Below, one piece after another: positions 19,336 to 47,783 of a DNA stretch of 64,000 nt. Made by a program: the position numbers and the translations under genes. Source of the stretch: Eledone cirrhosa (taxonomy: Eukaryota); assembly GCA_964016885.1 (NCBI GenBank), contig OZ024743.1, forward strand, positions 351,354,001-351,418,000, given 5' to 3'. A model generated the notes under the pieces. That model worked only from the letters and a program-made list of their open reading frames with translations, was not told the DNA's origin and ran no database searches. Within the stretch, counting starts at the first letter, position 1. Every line of letters starts with the position of its first letter.

Positions 19336-19941
19336 TAAATGAAACAATTATTATTATTATTTAGTTCTCATTGATATTCTATATCCAGAGCTTATACAGC
19401 CCCTTCCAAAGTGATGGTATTGTCAATGTTTAATTTGGAATACATACAGCAAGTAAGTTACATATACATATTCAAGAGAAATGGTTTCAGTCAGAGCTTG
19501 AAACTGTCTTCCGATTTCGGATTTTCCTCTTTCCACAGATTCCTTTCTGCTGGAACGTCCTTAATATCACGTGGCCTGAGTATATTTTCATCTCCTTCGG
19601 GGTTGTTTAACTTAACTTATAAATTGATGTGATCAAAGGGGGAAATTAGTTATTCATATCATCTAGATAAATTGTTATTTAGTTTTCGGATTTACGAGTA
19701 AAACCACATGGTGTCCCCAAAACATGTATACACCATTCTAATAAATATTTCCTGTACAGGTAATCAAAGTATGTATACATTTTCATAAACACATAGTATA
19801 CACATATATCTATTACAAATATTTCATAGACACATAGTAAACACATATATCTATTACAAACATTTCATATCTGCACACAGTTATTTCTACTATATAAAAT
19901 AGTCCTAAATATTCCATTGTGTTTGCTTTAAGAATATGTCT

Positions 19942-21996
19942 CTATTTAGCAGTATTATATTTAGGGTTTTTTCTAAAACAATTAAAGATAACAGAACGAA
20001 AAGACTTCGAAACAAAGCTATATAAGAAAGCATTCATAGAATGTTGCATGACAAGAAGTGACAGCATTATACTACCTAAAAGAGGGCTTGGTTCGAATTT
20101 AGCCCATTTAAATATATGTTTAACCATGCCGGGTAATTCAAAGATAAACTTGCAAATAATTATTGTAAAAAGAATGAGGTTTATCTGTCGAAAATATTGG
20201 TTTCCCTCCTCAGTTCCTAGGGTGCTTCGAATTCTCTTTTGTTGCCTCAGCTGCATGATAATTAATATATTCAGTATGACAATTGTTAATGATGGGATAA
20301 GCCAGCCATTAAAGACCATTGTAATTTGTAGCAAAACATTAGTATATTCAGATTTAATGCAAATACCATTTTCATAGGATTTCAGGTTTAATTGAATATA
20401 ACATAATAGAACCTGGGCAAGAAAACAAGTGGCCAATGCCGACATGATTTTGTATTTTGTGATGTAAATTTTAGCTTTAAGTGGAAATCTTACCACAATA
20501 AATCTCTCTGTTGACATCAACGCAATTGTCCAGGCCGTGGTAGATTTGACGAAGATTTTCAGAAAATATAACATTTTGCACATGAACAAACTTCGATCCG
20601 ACATATTTTGGCCAGAATAATAGAGGAAAAATTCGCTTTCTATTAATATTATTATACCTGTTAACATTTCAACTATAGAAAGGCACATTGGTATATAAAA
20701 CGCCACTTCCTTTTTAAAATCCTTCGATCTGAAGACTAAAATTGAGATGATGTTACCAACTATTCCTATACATAAAATAGCTGGCTGTATGATAATATCT
20801 ACCACGTTGACGCTTCTAACTAAGTCATCAGTTTGTGTCACATTTACCTTTGAAGAATTAACGAACGCCATTGGCGTTTGAGTAACATTAAGAAACCTTG
20901 AAAATAATTCCTTTTGCGAATACAGCGGTATTGTGGATTCTGTTGACGTAACCATGGCTGCGGAATGGGTCAGGGTTAGGGTTTGATTGTTTAACATTGT
21001 AGAAAAAGTCTGGTTGAGCTCCTGTGGTGAAAAAAGCTGACCGGTTTTTAAAGGAAATACATCTCTTTTTATCAATCTGTGAATAAGAGGAGGTTTACTT
21101 GAATCTGCCCTAAATACGTTTATATCATTGAAAATAAAATGTGTTCCTAGAACAAGGCGTGAGAATGTTCTTGGGATTAAGAAAGGTACGTATTTTGACT
21201 TTCCCTGGATTTGATGATTTGCATTATTGAAATATGAAAATTGACAAAATTGTGCTGCTTTTCGACGATTACGATTAGATCTGAAAATGACCAGCAGGAC
21301 AGGTATATATTTCGATCGAAAGGAAATTAAGATATTAGGTACTCGGAAAGAATACTTCGGAAATATGATTGCGTTAGAACTGTATTTCAAAATGATTTTC
21401 ATTTCTTTAAATTTCAAGGCTTCCTTTCGAAATAATAATGCCAATGATTTACGTATTATTATTATATTTCTAAACATGGATATTAATTTCTTATTCGATG
21501 TTAGAATTGCTGTGTGGTCCCTAGTAAACATTAATGTGTAGCATGTATTAATCCGAAGAGAAATATGATGGGTGGGTTTTAATATTTGGAGTAAGCCTGT
21601 AAGAAATAGAATACTAGAAGGCTGAGAGCTTTCTTTTTCACGAGAGAGTGTGTTAGTGGTACTGGGTGAGTATACAGATAGATTGAGACTGGCAATATAT
21701 GGTAACTTTGATAACTTTGTTAGGTTTTGGCCAGTTTTGGCCCAGGCCATGTCTAACTTAATAACACCACCTGGTATATTATTACTTGTCGACACTTCAG
21801 CTATTATATTGTGAACAGTATGTTCTGGTAGTTGTTTGGTGTCAGTAGCATATGCAAATTCTCTTGAACCTGTTAGTCTAATCATTTCGCTACTATCTAA
21901 TCCCAGGTTGGTCTCGGAATATTCGGGTGGTTTGATACTCCTTCTGTCTTCTGGCATCAGGAAGTTTGGTGTATTATCTTTCATTACTTCTCTCAA
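19942..21996 (-). CDS. Class A (rhodopsin-like) 7TM GPCR, peptide/chemoreceptor-like, with long N-terminal extension
   Basis: 684-codon frame; TM1 GIVGN, TM2 LSIVE, TM3 C...ERFIVVRFPLKAK, TM5 WLIP, TM6 FELP, TM7 SMNAFLY, helix 8 SKSFR; N-glycosylation sequons before TM1; true start uncertain. Confidence 0.9.
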   Translation of the reverse strand: MREVMKDNTPNFLMPEDRRSIKPPEYSETNLGLDSSEMIRLTGSREFAYATDTKQLPEHTVHNIIAEVSTSNNIPGGVIKLDMAWAKTGQNLTKLSKLPYIASLNLSVYSPSTTNTLSREKESSQPSSILFLTGLLQILKPTHHISLRINTCYTLMFTRDHTAILTSNKKLISMFRNIIIIRKSLALLFRKEALKFKEMKIILKYSSNAIIFPKYSFRVPNILISFRSKYIPVLLVIFRSNRNRRKAAQFCQFSYFNNANHQIQGKSKYVPFLIPRTFSRLVLGTHFIFNDINVFRADSSKPPLIHRLIKRDVFPLKTGQLFSPQELNQTFSTMLNNQTLTLTHSAAMVTSTESTIPLYSQKELFSRFLNVTQTPMAFVNSSKVNVTQTDDLVRSVNVVDIIIQPAILCIGIVGNIISILVFRSKDFKKEVAFYIPMCLSIVEMLTGIIILIESEFFLYYSGQNMSDRSLFMCKMLYFLKIFVKSTTAWTIALMSTERFIVVRFPLKAKIYITKYKIMSALATCFLAQVLLCYIQLNLKSYENGICIKSEYTNVLLQITMVFNGWLIPSLTIVILNILIIMQLRQQKRIRSTLGTEEGNQYFRQINLILFTIIICKFIFELPGMVKHIFKWAKFEPSPLLGSIMLSLLVMQHSMNAFLYSFVSKSFRSVIFNCFRKNPKYNTAK
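21700..21776 (-). mobile_element. 72-bp CR1/L2 LINE 3' tail inserted in frame in the GPCR ORF
   Basis: ccaggtggtgttattaagttagacatggcctgggccaa...aagttatcaaagtta matches 46743-46806; tacca repeated 72 bp apart. Confidence 0.9.
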
Positions 21997-22047
21997 AATC
22001 GGTAAACCAGTGCTGACCTTGTGGACAGAATTAAAGTCCCGTCTCTT

Positions 22048-22677
22048 CTAAAACATCAATCTAACTCTAACGTGTTTTACCATTTTTTCAATAAGTTTAA
22101 AATCCTCAAGACAAAGATTCGGTGTTTTGACAATACCATTCTTGCAACTAAAGGCACGATATAGTACTAGTTTATTTGCTAAAGAAAACGACTGAAAGGT
22201 GAAATCTTGTATTTTAGATTCGAAATTTCGGAATTTATCTTTAAGTGTTGTATTAAATATAGAAATGTTTTGAAGAATCCAGTTAAACTTTTTGTAATAA
22301 GCCTGTAGTCTGTTCGCAGGATCTTGGCTCTGCATCTTTAGAAAATATTCTATCATCTGATTTTTTGGTAGCTTTACTGATTGAATTCCATGAAAGTACG
22401 TAACGATGCTATTATAGTATTTTGCTTGTTTGTCTTTCGTCTGTTTTCCTCTGGGATATATTTCTTCGTCAGTTGGGTTTTCATTTAAATTGCTTCTTTG
22501 ATGATTCAAATGGTTTCGGTAGAATCGAGCAAGTATTTCGAAAATTGATTTCTCCTGTTGAATGTCATTTGAATCTATATATCTGGTCACATTGATACTT
22601 CTACTGAAGATATTTCTTTCGGGACACGTGGCAATCTGATCAAATACTTGTCTCCATCTGTAATATTGGAACTTATT
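22048..22677 (-). CDS. Upstream in-frame continuation of the GPCR ORF, separated by a single TAG
   Basis: Same frame as 19942..21996; open from 22677 to TAG at 22050-22048, then open again (KRRDFNSVHK...). Confidence 0.6.
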   Translation of the reverse strand, partial: NKFQYYRWRQVFDQIATCPERNIFSRSINVTRYIDSNDIQQEKSIFEILARFYRNHLNHQRSNLNENPTDEEIYPRGKQTKDKQAKYYNSIVTYFHGIQSVKLPKNQMIEYFLKMQSQDPANRLQAYYKKFNWILQNISIFNTTLKDKFRNFESKIQDFTFQSFSLANKLVLYRAFSCKNGIVKTPNLCLEDFKLIEKMVKHVRVRLMF

Positions 22678-22880
22678 TTAACAGGAGTCTTTCTTAACAT
22701 CATATTTGTGGCGACCATATTCTTATTGCTTTTTATATCAGAAGTGTTCCAAAGGAGCATGCTCGCCGTTAACTTGAATACCAGAAATAGATCCAGGAAC
22801 AACATCACTGAAATATATATTCGATTTAAATCTGTAAAAATAATGAAAACAGTAAAAAATATAAGAAATATCAAATTCAT
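22587..22880 (-). CDS. Probable N-terminal (signal peptide) segment of the same gene, frameshifted
   Basis: ATG followed by hydrophobic MNLIFLIFFTVFIIF; overlaps the next frame by about 90 bp. Confidence 0.5.
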   Translation of the reverse strand: MNLIFLIFFTVFIIFTDLNRIYISVMLFLDLFLVFKLTASMLLWNTSDIKSNKNMVATNMMLRKTPVKISSNITDGDKYLIRLPRVPKEISSVEVSM

Positions 22881-23030
22881 AATAGTAGATGCACTACAAA
22901 CTACGTATGTCTATAAAGGTTTTGCTTTTTGTTTGTTTGTTTGTTTGTTTGTTTCTGCACCCATGTCTCATTTTCAGGACCTCCTAGTTTGGTTGGTGGA
23001 GAGGGAGATATGAATGCATTTTCAAACCTG

Positions 23031-43290: not shown

Positions 43291-44075
43291 GCGCAGCCCC
43301 AACACTGCTGTGCTCTAGACCTAGAGCCCATCACCCTCATCTTCCCTCTCCCATTATTCTGTGACCCCAGAGCCCTTACCCTTCCCTCAATTTTCTGTTT
43401 TTAAATATCAGTAGTGTTATTGTCATTTAAAATAGGTTTATTTATGATTTTTTAAATTTTCATTAATAAAACCGTTTATAGAATTAGGAAGCTAAATTGA
43501 ATAGCATTTGAATATAAACTACATTGCATGTAAAGTATTGAACTTTAGAAGTGCTGGGTGGTTATAAGCTAATATATATAGCAACTGGCTGTATTTACAG
43601 TTATTTTCTGCGTCCGAGTTTCCTACATTTTCTATGATCTTTATAACCCGTCAATTCCAATACTATACATTGAATAGCAGTCTCATCCTTAAAAAAATAT
43701 GTTTCGAACCCTGAGGCAAATCAGGTCAGTGTTTATCCCAGTTACGGTGGGGCTAAGAAACTGAGAGTACAATACTATCCCCTGAACTGGACGCCAGTCC
43801 ATCGCAGGTTTAAAATTCCAGCTATTGCTGGGACTCATTTCCAGCTGAGTGCTGTGGAGCAACGTAAAATTAAAGCATTATGATCGTAAGTTCAACCAAC
43901 TTACCTCGCGCGCCTCCACAGACATACATAAAAATATTAGTGACTCTGCGTCATTTAACATAACCACAATAAAATTGTTACTCTGTATATATACACAGAT
44001 ACATACATGCTCGTATATACACATATATACACATTTATATATGTATAAATACATATATATATATACATATGTAAT

Positions 44076-44109
<34 letters not shown>

Positions 44110-44215
44110 GCATATATACATACATATATACATATACTTATATACATATATATATACATATATACATATATATATACACATATACACATATACACATATA
44201 CACATATATATACAC

Positions 44216-46806
44216 CATCCTTGCTGTCACTAACACACAATCACAAAACAAGCTCCCTGCAACAGTCAAAACCAGCCACCCCACTAGCCTCCACATTCTT
44301 ACTCAATACACAAGGTATCAGCCCATCCATCAATGCACAGAAATGGAAGATCCAATTCATTGAGGATTGGGTTGGTAACCATCCATTTCACACCCCCTTC
44401 TTCCTTCTTACTGAGACCCACCTTGACAACTCCCACTTGGAGGCCGAAGTAAGAGTGAGAAATTTCACAACCATCCGTGCGGATCGTGTTGGCAGAAGGA
44501 AGGGTGGAACTGCCATTTTCCTGCATGATTCCTTTACGGCAGATGGCAACACATCATTCTCTAATGGATACTCTGAATCAGTCATTGTGCACAATAAAGC
44601 CAATGATCTGACATTAGTTGGGCTCTATAAGCCACCATAAACACCCATAATCTGCTTCAAAGAATGCCTCAACAGTATTAAATGATTTATTAAACAGTGC
44701 CATTCTAGCAACATACTTTTGATGGGAGACTTTAATCTACCCTGTGTCGATTGGTCTACATGTAGTTTGAAACCAGGCTCCACAGCCTCAACCACTGACG
44801 AGTCACTTCTTGAAGCAGGGTGATAGCCATGCTTGAGTCAAAAAAATATAACCTCCAGAAATGCATGATGACCATCATCAATAACCAGAGAATAGCTGAA
44901 GAGAGGTGGGCCATTGAGAAAATCAAACTCAACCCCAAAGTATTCTTTTCATTTTCTAAAAAACACAAGGTCACCGTCTCCACTGTTGGCCCCCTAGTTG
45001 ATGAAAATGACACAGTCCAGGACAATGCGAAAACCATGGGCGAGATACTGAAGAAACAATACTGCTCTGTTTTCAGCAATCCTGATATGGCCGATCTGGG
45101 CCGTATCAGTGATATTAACCCCCAACACACTATATCAGACATAACGTTTGGTGCCCCTGATGTCTTAGCGGCAATAAACGAAATTAAACCCAATTCAGCA
45201 GTAGGCCCTGACAGGTTCCCTGCTTGTGTCCTGAAGGTGTGTCGACACCAACTTGCATCTCCTCTTGCTAATCTGTGGAGGAACTCACTGGACACTGGCT
45301 ATATTCTGAAAACTTTCTGTCCCAGTCCGTTGTCCCAGTCTTCAAAAAGGGAAATAAGTCCCTTGCAGTGAACTACCGTCCGATCTCACTCACCTCTCAC
45401 ATTATCAAGGTATTTGAGAGGGTGGTGAGATCACGAATAACCCACTTTCTTGAAAGCAATGGCCTGCTGAACTCCAACCAACATGGGTTCCGTGATGGAA
45501 GGGACTGCCTAACGCAGCTCCTGCATCACTTTGACAATGTTTTAAGAGCCTTGGGAGAGAGCTCCAACACTGATGTCATCTACCTTGACTTCAGCAAGGC
45601 CTTCGACAGGGTTGATAATAAGATTCTACTGAAAAAACTATCCAATGTTGGTATCTCTGGAAGGTTACTACAGTGGATCAAATGTTTCCTGACAGGCAGA
45701 ATCAGCATGTTGTAGTCGAAGGAGTAAAATCAAGCCCCGCTGGTCAGCAGTGGCGTCCCACAAGGCACTGTGTTGGGCCCACTTTTTTTCATCATCTACA
45801 TTAATGACATTACTGACATCATCAAGCACAGCAACATCAGAATCTTCGCAGATGATTCCAAGCTCCAAAGGGTCATCAATGAGGTGGGTGACCGGACATG
45901 CCTTCAGTCAGACCTAGTGGCTGTTATCCAATGGGCAGAAATGAATAATATGCTGTTGAATGAGGGTAAATTTGAATTAATCCACTTTGGAAAAAAGGAT
46001 GTCCTGAAAATACAATATCTCTTCCTTCGGGTGAAACTCAAGTGGCATCCAATAGCATCAGAGACCTGGGAGTAATTGGGGACAACATAAGCTGGGCCAC
46101 TCATATAAACAGCAAAGTTGATATGGCCCGCAGAATGTGTTCCTGGATTCTTAGAACTTTCCAGTCGAGAGATATCCACACTGTTATCCTTCTCTTCTCC
46201 ACTTTTGCCCCACCCCACCTTCAATACTGTTGTCCATTGTGGTCACCCCACACGAAACAAAGTATTATGAAAGTTGAAGCACCCCAAAGGTCAATTACAA
46301 AAAAGATAGATGGCATGACAGGCCTTGACTATTGGAGTCGATTAGAAAAGCTCAAACTTTATTCTCTCCAACGTCGCCGTGAGCTCTACATTATCTGTAT
46401 GATGTGGAAAATATTCCATCAGCTTTGTCCAAATGATGTTGGCATCACCTTTAGTGTACACCCAAGGCTTGGGCCCCGTGCTATCCGCCCACGACAAAAA
46501 TCTCACTCGCATCACATAACAACAATACGGCACAATTATTTGACCTCAATTGGCCCTGCACTCTTTAACATTACACCAAGACACATCAAAGCAGAGACAG
46601 ACCCCATCAAGTTCAAGAAGTCTTTGGATAAATTCCTTCAAGAAATCCCGGATAAGCCTCCTACACCCGGATATGCCTCCGTAAACAATAACTCTCTGCT
46701 CGAGTGGGCCATGGTGCCCAAACACTGATTTGTAAGACTTCGCCAGGTGGTGCTATTAAGTTAGACATGGCGTGGGCCAATACTGGCCGAAAGTTATCAA
46801 AGTTAT
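44216..46806 (+). mobile_element. CR1/L2-clade LINE, internally deleted and frameshifted (APE + RT)
   Basis: TETHL, GGTAIF, MGDFNLP; NYRPISLTS, QHGFR, YLDFSKAFD, SGVPQG, FADD; LYSLQRRR; tail aagttatcaaagttat. Confidence 0.95.
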
Positions 46807-46808
46807 AT

Positions 46809-46884
<76 letters not shown>

Positions 46885-46886
<2 letters not shown>

Positions 46887-47783
46887 ATTATGAAGAGAGA
46901 AGAAACATTTAGATATAATTAGTAATAAAATGTATCATACCTAAACTGCTCCTAGATTCCTCGACTACGTAGTTTCGTGGCATAAACAAAAACAATACAT
47001 CATAAAGATATAGAGCCTTTGCGAGGTCTGCCGACTTATCAAGAGGATGCCTCATTTTACTAGCCTCAAGAACGCGTCTACACGACGTGAGAAAGAATCC
47101 CAAAAGGCGGAGGGGGAGATAGTCACGCAATATAACGGTCGAGAAACAGAGCTAAGCCTCCTATAACCCCGAAGAAAATACCACGGAGGCGGAGGGGGTA
47201 TTTATATCGAAGCCGTAGAAGAGGTGGTAAAGGAGGCGAGAAGTATGAGTAATGGCAGCTTTCCAGCAGTCACCACACTTCAAAGATTACTCGACCAGAG
47301 GGAGTTATGAACAATATATTTAGAAACACACAGATACATGCGGACACACACATATACATGAATGCATCCACATCCAACCGTGAGTTAATGGTGCCAACCT
47401 TACCGATGTTGCTCAATGAATGACTGGGACAGACGCGTTGTTCAGGCTAGTAAAATGAGGTATCCTCTTGATAAGTCGGCAGACCTCGCAAAGGCTCTAT
47501 ATCTTTATGATGTACTGTTTTTGTTTATGCCACGAAACTACGTAGTCGAGGAATCTAGGAGCAGTTTAGGTATGATACATTTTATTACTAATTATATCTA
47601 AATGTTTCTTCTCTCTTCATAATGTATTTTTAACTCTGATACTGGTTCAGTCTGGGTCAACCGGATTGGTCTGTCCCAGTCATTCATTGAGCAACATCGG
47701 TAAGGTTGGCACCATTAACTCACGGTTGGGTGTGGATGCATTCATGTATATGTGTGTGTCCGCATGTATCTGTGTGTTTCTAA

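What the first reader, a model, noticed from the sequence alone, without database searches (positions are those of the whole stretch)
21700..21776. LINE 3' tail inserted in frame as 24 amino acids of a GPCR N-terminus
Seen: the peptide GGVIKLDMAWAKTGQNLTKLSKLP is encoded by sequence matching the non-coding 3' end of the CR1/L2 LINE at 46743-46806. 'tacca' is repeated exactly 72 bp apart (target duplication or microhomology), so removal restores NNIPYIA in frame. The insert has about 9 extra nt (aacctaaca) that the local LINE copy lacks, so the donor is a different copy. Inference: an extremely 5'-truncated insertion was tolerated because it adds no stop and no frameshift, which weakly supports this region being translated.
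Basis: seen in the sequence. Interest (0 to 1): 0.72.

Follow-up and report, generated by a model that had tools for sequence, protein, structure and literature searches.

The report
LINE tail inside a receptor gene
The last 72 bases of a very common jumping gene (a LINE) sit in frame inside the coding sequence of a one-copy receptor gene. There they would add 24 amino acids that the only known relative lacks. It is a tidy but ordinary case of mobile DNA becoming part of a gene, and the assembled copy of the gene is itself broken further upstream.

Summary
Window 21703-21774 (minus strand) is the terminal 72 nt of an abundant LINE. A 33-nt core of that tail has 3523 exact copies in the 3.0 Gb genome, and 30 of 30 sampled copies continue upstream into LINE sequence. 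The insert is flanked by TACCA repeats 72 nt apart. It lies in frame in a long open frame that ends in a rhodopsin-type 7TM domain (Pfam 7tm_1).

The gene is single copy. Its only relative with the N-terminal part (P0002, 950 aa) aligns along the whole length and shows one 25-column gap exactly at the insert, so its site is empty. The donor was not the local LINE copy.

New here:
- The coding sequence starts 820 nt further upstream, at ATG 22805, with a hydrophobic leader that matches the relative.
- The assembled allele is broken there by a 13-nt deletion, a -2/-1 pair and a TAG stop.
- Contigs from the same sample carry the unbroken versions. Contigs of both kinds run across one junction into the insert, but their break-free forms were not phased to it.

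Translation is untested because no RNA run was listed. Retrotransposition (TPRT) with extreme 5' truncation is inferred. This is a new member of a known kind; interest is modest.

The parts
21703..21774 (-). 72-nt LINE 3' end in frame in the receptor gene. It codes for 24 residues (GGVIKLDMAWAKTGQNLTKLSKLP, with the shared Pro codon). It consists of two hairpins followed by two ~10-nt tail units.
   Evidence: The closest genomic copies differ at 3 of 72 positions.
21772..21776 (-). Upstream copy of the TACCA direct repeat. Its CCA also matches the LINE.
   Evidence: sequence.
21700..21704 (-). Downstream copy of the TACCA direct repeat. Its TA also matches the LINE's last bases.
   Evidence: sequence.
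19942..22805 (-). Single-exon receptor gene running from ATG 22805-22803 to the stop at 19944-19942. The break-free form would give 959 aa.
20020..20757 (-). Rhodopsin-type 7TM domain (residues 410-655 of P0001).
   Evidence: Pfam 7tm_1, E 4.7e-12, 46.4 bits against a cutoff of 30.5. Hydrophobic segments occur only in this part.
22603..22604 (-). Site of a 13-nt deletion in the assembled allele. It shifts the frame, so the ORF from the native ATG stops at 22589-22587 after 72 codons.
   Evidence: a contig of run X3 has 13 more bases here.
22048..22071 (-). Cluster of three lesions in the assembled allele: a TAG stop (22050-22048), 1 nt missing at 22057 and 2 nt missing at 22071.
   Evidence: contigs of X2 and X3 carry the other state.
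21982..21984 (-). First in-frame ATG after the TAG stop; start of P0001 (680 aa).
43849..46806 (+). Local degenerate LINE copy. It has RT pieces at 45272-46075, its ORF ends at 46728, and its tail at 46743-46806 is of the short type.

Best explanation
A 72-base 3' end of an abundant LINE lies in frame inside the single long coding exon of a one-copy rhodopsin-type receptor gene. It was most likely put there by target-primed reverse transcription that stopped after 72 bases, and it would add 24 residues to the receptor's predicted outer domain.

Shown:
- The insert is the LINE's terminal module: two adjacent hairpins and two ~10-nt tail units.
- It sits between TACCA repeats.
- It is in the only stop-free sense phase, and its length is a multiple of three.
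- The flanking frame is open and homologous along its whole length to a 950-aa relative that has a gap exactly here.
- The gene is unique in the genome.

Inferred:
- The insertion happened after the split from that relative, in an intact gene. It survived because it neither shifts nor stops the frame, which by my arithmetic has about a 1 in 9 prior chance for a random short sense insertion.
- The nick was primed on the element's terminal TA, and the 5' junction was joined through the CCA microhomology.
- Later, one allele (the assembled one) picked up a 13-nt frameshift deletion and a -2/-1/TAG cluster upstream. The unbroken states persist in the same sample, so the gene would now segregate as intact and null alleles.
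For: Repeat identity:
- 723 first-look candidates in the own genome, of which 40 were scored at 90-96% identity.
- 3523 exact copies of a 33-nt core, against 0 for the reversed control.
- 30 of the first 30 copies along contig C1 continue upstream into the same LINE sequence.
- The local copy has RVT_1 pieces with E 5.6e-15 and 1.7e-8.
- The summed word depth in the insert is about 1.5e5, against 5-10 in the flanks.

Tail anatomy:
- Hairpins at nt 2-32 and 33-46 of the 72-mer; MFE -21.7 kcal/mol, z -2.4.
- They are followed by a variable number of ~10-nt units and then (TA)n or (CA)n.

Coding context:
- Over 953 codons the gene frame has 4 stops; the other five frames have 35-91. GC is 34%.
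- The gene region is single copy.
- P0002 aligns over 98% of P0001 at 42% identity.
- The upstream ORFs also match P0002, with E 9e-17 and 1e-7.
- Identity to P0002 is 224/555 in the N-terminal part and 156/281 in the 7TM part.

Empty site: MAFFT puts one 25-column gap in all four relative sequences exactly at the insert.

Youth: there are 3 of 72 differences from the closest copies. The same three places differ from nearly all family reads in three other individuals.

Presence of the insert: contigs cover both junctions and none skips the insert. Contigs with the broken state and contigs with the unbroken states both run from 22750 across the 21774/21775 junction to 21749, 26 nt into the insert.

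Recurrence of such stubs:
- 33 of 3762 copies have the same 5' end.
- 18 of 3814 have their 5' end at +8.
- 1 of 3101 has its 5' end at -10.
- 28 of the 30 inspected copies with the same 5' end truly lack LINE sequence upstream.
- By eye, some copies in unique DNA (L087, L091, L084) have short flank repeats that overlap the element's last bases, like TACCA here.
Against: - There is no RNA or peptide evidence, because no RNA holder was listed, so translation of the insert is a prediction.
- The assembled allele is interrupted upstream, so from the native start it would not make the peptide.
- The empty site rests on one relative lineage and on protein sequence only. Its DNA could not be fetched, so the single TACCA before insertion is not seen directly.
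- TACCA is ambiguous. Three of its bases at one end and two at the other also match the LINE, so it may be a target duplication or microhomology.
- The +13 state is seen in one low-depth contig (depth 4.11). Phasing of the insert with the unbroken states is not possible from k-mer contigs.
- The N-terminal 650-odd residues have no other relative among 1.84 billion representatives.
- A 319-aa relative (P0006) is on record without the N-terminal part.
- Two of the four relative sequences stop early in TM7, which hints at relaxed constraint on this gene.
Confidence: 0.8

Rival explanations
1. The insert is present in the DNA but removed from the mRNA. The LINE tail supplies a splice donor (CAG|GTGGTG at 21771/21770) that could pair in frame with a pyrimidine-rich acceptor ending at 21597. 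That would make a 174-nt intron, so the 24 residues (and 34 native ones) would not be in the protein.
For: One search found donor and acceptor pairs whose lengths are multiples of three. The 174-nt pair has the best acceptor (TATTTCTTACAG, 80% pyrimidines in the 15 nt before the AG).
Against: The sites were found by pattern only. The acceptor lies in sequence that is coding and conserved in the relative. The gene otherwise reads as one exon in both species. The nearest acceptor (21689) gives an 82-nt intron that would shift the frame. No RNA data are available either way.
Confidence: 0.12
2. The whole locus is a dying or dead gene. On this view the insertion was tolerated because constraint was already lost, not because it kept the frame, and the in-frame, stop-free fit is luck (about 1 in 9).
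For: - The assembled allele has four lesions.
- Two of the four sequences of the relative stop early in TM7.
- No RNA holder was listed.
- The protein atlas gave a low recognition value and no hit.
- AlphaFold2 gave a mean pLDDT of 30.
Against: - Apart from the lesions in the first 260 codons, the frame is open for 701 codons at 34% GC, where the other frames have a stop every 10-27 codons.
- The unbroken states exist in the same sample.
- The relative keeps 950 open codons, and all 21 gap runs in the N-terminal alignment are in frame.
- Contigs with the unbroken states also cover a junction of the insert, so the insertion most likely predates the lesions.
Confidence: 0.12
3. The 72 nt arrived by a route other than retrotransposition. 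One possibility is capture of a LINE cDNA or DNA fragment during double-strand break repair; another is a short ectopic conversion joined through the CCA and TA microhomologies.
For: The insert is very short. Both junctions can be read as 2-3-nt microhomologies. No microsatellite tail follows the insert, unlike most copies.
Against: - The insert ends exactly at the element's natural 3' end.
- 33 other copies share the same 5' end and 18 more start 8 nt further in. Several of those in unique DNA show flank repeats that overlap the element's last bases.
- This is the expected signature of target-primed reverse transcription with early termination.
Confidence: 0.1
4. The segment is old and was precisely lost in the relative.
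For: Only one relative lineage is available for the site.
Against: The insert differs at only 3 of 72 nt from living LINE copies. The flanking N-terminal protein is only 40% identical between the two species, so a shared ancestral insert would be far more diverged.
Confidence: 0.02

Closest known systems
Transposable-element fragments in protein-coding sequence (TE exonization, e.g. Alu- or LINE-derived exons; recalled from general knowledge, no paper read for it)
   Same: A piece of a mobile element supplies amino acids within a host open reading frame that relatives lack.
   Different: Here the piece landed directly in an existing coding exon, in frame, rather than being recruited from an intron through new splice sites. 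Translation is not shown.
5'-truncated LINE insertions made by target-primed reverse transcription (recalled; TPRT is named in the abstract of PMC10830416, seen in the listing)
   Same: The 3' end is intact, the 5' body is missing, and a short direct repeat or microhomology sits at the junctions.
   Different: At 72 nt it is at the extreme short end: only the two terminal hairpins and the tail units remain. The same 5' end recurs in 33 of 3762 copies.
Stringent-type LINE 3' tails (UnaL2, ZfL2). PMC4176376: abstract and passages read. PMC1636434: abstract start seen.
   Same: The 3' end carries a specific stem-loop rather than poly(A). In those LINEs the ORF2 protein recognises that stem-loop.
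   Different: Recognition was not tested here. This tail has two adjacent predicted hairpins plus 1-3 units of ~10 nt, and is usually followed by a TA or CA microsatellite.
Segregating pseudogenes of receptor genes (e.g. olfactory receptor genes with intact and null alleles; recalled)
   Same: Broken and unbroken versions of one receptor gene are found in the same sample.
   Different: This is a single-copy orphan receptor with a ~690-aa N-terminal part that has no other relatives, not a member of a large tandem family. Population frequencies are unknown.

Membership tests
Rhodopsin-type GPCR (Pfam 7tm_1) | Match to the family profile above the curated cutoff | tested here: met
   PF00001, E 4.7e-12, 46.4 bits against a cutoff of 30.5, profile positions 1-260 of 260. 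The Srw model is also matched, at E 1.1e-6.
Rhodopsin-type GPCR (Pfam 7tm_1) | Seven hydrophobic helices in the C-terminal part, and none in the N-terminal part | tested here: inconclusive
   the Kyte-Doolittle scan finds hydrophobic segments only after residue 618 of the frame translation, but merges them into about five or six blocks. No dedicated TM predictor was available. The AlphaFold2 model was too poor to use.
   RVT_1 in two consecutive ORF pieces at 45272-46075. In one search, 30 of 30 tails are attached to the same upstream sequence.
   Exo_endo_phos at E 0.043, 14 bits, below the cutoff of 24.5, in a degenerate fragment (44263-44640).
   No reference set of LINE clades was at hand. 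A 3' end with a stem-loop and short tandem units and no poly(A) fits CR1/L2-like 'stringent' LINEs (PMC4176376 passages), but that is a resemblance only.
TPRT insertion with 5' truncation | Natural 3' end kept, 5' body missing, short target duplication | tested here: met
   Searches show the insert ends at the family's last unit and starts at the base of hairpin 1. The 5-nt TACCA repeat is present, but it is ambiguous between a duplication and microhomology.
TE-derived coding sequence | Lies inside a conserved open reading frame and is absent from an orthologue | tested here: met
TE-derived coding sequence | Present in mature mRNA and in the protein | not testable with these tools
   One search listed no RNA run, and there are no proteomic data.

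The most novel reading that the evidence does not exclude
The intact allele makes a lineage-specific orphan receptor whose large outer domain now carries a LINE-derived 24-residue loop with its own N-glycosylation sequon (NLT). The same gene is at this moment segregating as intact and null alleles. That would be a snapshot of a young receptor gaining mobile-element coding sequence while it is on the way to being lost. The LINE's two-hairpin tail would also be a preferred stopping point for reverse transcription, which repeatedly seeds 64-72-nt stubs across the genome.
Probability: 0.2. Interest if true: 0.45.

Novelty: new member of a known kind. Interest (0 to 1): 0.3.

Why it matters
This is a clean, datable example of a mobile-element end inserted straight into a coding exon without breaking the frame, with an empty site in a relative. 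Such cases show how new peptide segments can enter proteins.

For annotation, it shows three things. The gene model should start at 22805. The assembled haplotype is a null allele. The receptor has a long N-terminal part with no known relatives.

None of this is surprising to a specialist: TE-derived coding segments, extreme 5' truncation of LINEs and polymorphic receptor pseudogenes are all known.

Tried and rejected
- RNA evidence: no RNA holder was listed. Run X4 is of unknown kind and has a small share. It only gave two 151-nt pieces inside the 7TM part plus repeat pieces, so nothing can be said on expression.
- Population data: three RAD-seq runs do not cover the insert's junctions. They do cover 22603 through a fragment spanning 22543-22761, and they list no indel there. 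However, I had set 92% likeness, which would drop reads with a 13-nt insertion. Only 44 of 99, 15 of 80 and 16 of 88 molecules had a laid second mate.
- The idea that CCAGG is the element's normal 5' end or a separate short element: rejected. In an unbiased sample, 30 of 30 copies continue into the LINE. The 8 of 29 such copies were favoured by the query's TA-rich flank.
- Contig lengths of the relative's records (5353-5367 nt) as a sign of a transcript: rejected. DNA contigs here also break reproducibly at repeats.
- Structure: the AlphaFold2 model on a 4-row alignment had a mean pLDDT of 30.2, with all residues under 50, so it is not usable. No fold search was made.
- The protein atlas gave no usable hit.
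- The exhaustive profile-free search with the 449-aa N-terminal part hit only P0006, over residues 384-449.
- A second word-indexed search with the relative's N-terminal part returned only the relative itself.
- An intact full-length LINE copy for classification: L108 and L038 turned out to be truncated or chimeric, so the clade was left untested.
- Earlier notes of this scan gave nothing by place or by sequence.
- The first literature search gave only general papers and none was used.

Full report
**Observation.** On the minus strand, window 21774..21703 begins CCAGGTGGTG and ends AAAGTTA. It matches the last 64 nt of the LINE copy that ends at 46806 on the plus strand. A 25-mer from the core occurs exactly twice in the window, at these two places, and 0 times in 100 shuffles. 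TACCA stands at 21776-21772 and at 21704-21700, 72 nt apart. The local LINE copy lacks 9 nt that the insert has. All parts of the observation hold.

**The repeat.** The window lies in a 3.0 Gb genome.
- A search with the insert and short flanks gave 723 first-look candidates; the 40 that were scored were 90-96% identical.
- A 33-nt core has 3523 exact copies (1730 + 1793), against 0 for the reversed control.
- In the first 30 places along contig C1, a sample not chosen by flank, 30 of 30 copies continue upstream into the same sequence.
- In the window's copy that upstream sequence carries two RVT_1 pieces, with E 5.6e-15 and 1.7e-8. Its ORF ends at 46728, 14 nt before the tail.
- An AP-endonuclease match is only weak, at E 0.043 and below the cutoff.
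- So this is the 3' end of a LINE. The clade was not tested.

The 72-mer folds into two adjacent hairpins (nt 2-32 and 33-46), with MFE -21.7 kcal/mol and z -2.4; natural copies fold the same way. The hairpins are followed by one to three units of about 10 nt and then, in most copies, a TA or CA microsatellite.

Three tail types occur in the 30 unbiased copies:
- a dominant type in 25 copies;
- the insert's type in 4 copies (L059, L060, L061, L076);
- the short type of the local copy in 1 copy (L054), also seen in L107.

The closest copies differ from the insert at 3 of 72 positions (10 copies). Reads of three other individuals show that nearly all family members carry another letter at 21720, 21736 and 21764.

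**The gene.**
- P0001, read from the first ATG at 21984, matches Pfam 7tm_1 over residues 410-655 with E 4.7e-12, above the cutoff.
- Over 19945-22805 the gene frame has 4 stops in 953 codons, while the other five frames have 35-91. GC is 34%.
- The gene is single copy. The N-terminal part finds only itself in the genome. The 7TM part finds only 25-27% identical paralogues. The DNA at 21790-22830 is unique.
- One relative with the N-terminal part exists in the protein collections: P0002, 950 aa, in a cluster of four near-identical sequences. It aligns with 98% of P0001 at 42% identity.
- The ORF just upstream (22051-22677) is in the same frame and separated from P0001's frame by a single TAG. 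It matches P0002 residues 77-192 with E 9e-17.
- A third ORF piece (22590-22910) matches P0002 residues 12-65 with E 1e-7. It begins with an ATG at 22805 followed by a hydrophobic leader like P0002's.
- Identity to P0002 is 224/555 in the N-terminal part, with 21 gap runs that are all in frame. It is 156/281 in the 7TM part.
- No hydrophobic segment occurs between the leader and the 7TM part.
- The N-terminal part has no other relative among 1.84 billion representatives and no atlas hit.
- A 319-aa sequence from a third source (P0006) is 79% identical to P0002 and covers only the 7TM part.

I read the gene as a one-exon orphan receptor with a leader and an outer domain of about 690 residues. 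The topology is inferred.

**Empty site.** MAFFT of the window's frame with the four relative sequences puts one gap of 25 columns in all four, exactly at the insert plus one residue. Matching residues lie on both sides. The insert is far less diverged from living LINE copies (3 of 72 nt) than the flanks are between the species (40% protein identity). It therefore entered after the split, rather than being lost in the relative.

**The assembled allele is broken.** Contigs of three runs from one sample, probably the assembly's own, were laid on 19900-22750.
- Contigs cover both junctions of the insert, and no contig skips it.
- At 22050, contigs of X2 and X3 read the other letter, which turns the TAG into a glutamine codon. 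The relative has lysine at that position.
- The same contigs have 1 extra nt behind 22057 and 2 extra behind 22071. With these, the five residues before the stop change to a string closer to the relative.
- The X3 contig (depth 4.11) also has 13 extra nt behind 22603. With them the ORF from ATG 22805 runs on in frame. By eye, 9 of 12 residues across the junction equal the relative's, so this is real sequence and not an error.
- Without the 13 nt, the ORF from the native ATG stops at 22589-22587 after 72 codons.

The assembled allele thus carries a frameshift deletion and a -2/-1/TAG cluster. The break-free form would give 959 aa, with the insert at about residues 351-374 (arithmetic). X2's contig has the nearby changes but not the 13 nt, and k-mer contigs can mix haplotypes, so phasing is open. 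Contigs with either state run from 22750 down to 21749, 26 nt into the insert. The insert is therefore most likely on both haplotypes and older than the lesions (inferred).

**Mechanism.**
- The insert ends at the family's natural 3' end and starts at the base of the first hairpin.
- Only one of the three sense phases of the 72-mer is free of stops, and the length is a multiple of three (sequence). A random short sense insertion would keep a frame about once in nine. This is weak support for a selective filter.
- Copies with the same 5' end recur. With a pattern that demands non-LINE bases at -3 and -1, there are 33 of 3762 copies at this position, 18 of 3814 at 8 nt further in, and 1 of 3101 at 10 nt further out.
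- Of the 30 inspected copies with this 5' end, 28 truly lack LINE sequence upstream and 2 are internal deletions.
- Most of these copies sit in TA or CA microsatellites. By eye, some in unique DNA have a short flank repeat that overlaps the element's last bases, like TACCA here.

This fits target-primed reverse transcription that begins on the terminal TA and ends early, with the 5' junction made through CCA. These steps are inferred. Stringent-type LINEs are known to need a specific 3' stem-loop that their ORF2 protein binds (PMC4176376: abstract and passages). Whether that holds here is untested.

**Rivals.** See the Rival explanations section. The main open one is splicing. The tail brings CAG|GTGGTG, and an in-frame 174-nt intron to a good acceptor at 21597 is possible on paper.

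**What could not be done.**
- No RNA run was listed.
- The RAD runs are inconclusive for the 13-nt indel.
- The AlphaFold2 model was unusable, with a mean pLDDT of 30.
- The relative's DNA could not be fetched, so no dN/dS was computed and there is no nucleotide view of the empty site.

**Verdict.** This is a real and neat case of a known kind. It needs two corrections: the gene starts at 22805, and the assembled allele is a null upstream of the insert.

Noticed in passing
window 22048-22071 and 22603 (minus-strand gene): The assembled haplotype carries a TAG stop, a -1/-2 pair and a 13-nt deletion in the first 260 codons. Contigs from the same sample carry the unbroken states, so the gene looks like an intact/null polymorphism.
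   Followed up: yes
P0003 and P0005 versus P0002 and P0004 (relative's proteins): Two of the four near-identical sequences of the relative end early in TM7 (916 aa against 950 aa). A truncating variant may segregate there too.
   Followed up: no
G000 loci L078-L107; patterns: Very short LINE stubs recur. 33 of 3762 copies start exactly at the base of hairpin 1 and 18 of 3814 start 8 nt further in, but only 1 of 3101 starts 10 nt further out. Most lie inside TA or CA microsatellites.
   Followed up: partly
LINE tails in L048-L077 and window 46790-46900: The LINE 3' end carries one to three tandem units of about 10 nt and is almost always followed by a (TA)n or (CA)n run. Three tail types coexist, and one of them makes up 25 of 30 sampled copies with very uniform upstream sequence.
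   Followed up: partly
window 21770 and 21597 (minus strand): The inserted tail creates a CAG|GTGGTG donor that could pair in frame (174 nt) with a pyrimidine-rich acceptor in the native coding sequence.
   Followed up: partly
window 22543-22761: A RAD fragment in three other individuals covers the 13-nt indel site. Only 44 of 99, 15 of 80 and 16 of 88 molecules had a laid second mate. This might mean the longer allele was dropped by my 92% threshold.
   Followed up: no
window 20701-22805 (N-terminal ~690 residues): The receptor's long N-terminal part has no relative other than P0002's lineage among 1.84 billion representatives. It has no Pfam domain and no confident fold.
   Followed up: partly
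window 21715-21723 (minus strand, inside the insert): The insert's frame contains an N-glycosylation sequon (NLT). Copies with the commoner letter at 21720 would read NLS in the same frame, so the sequon came with the element.
   Followed up: no
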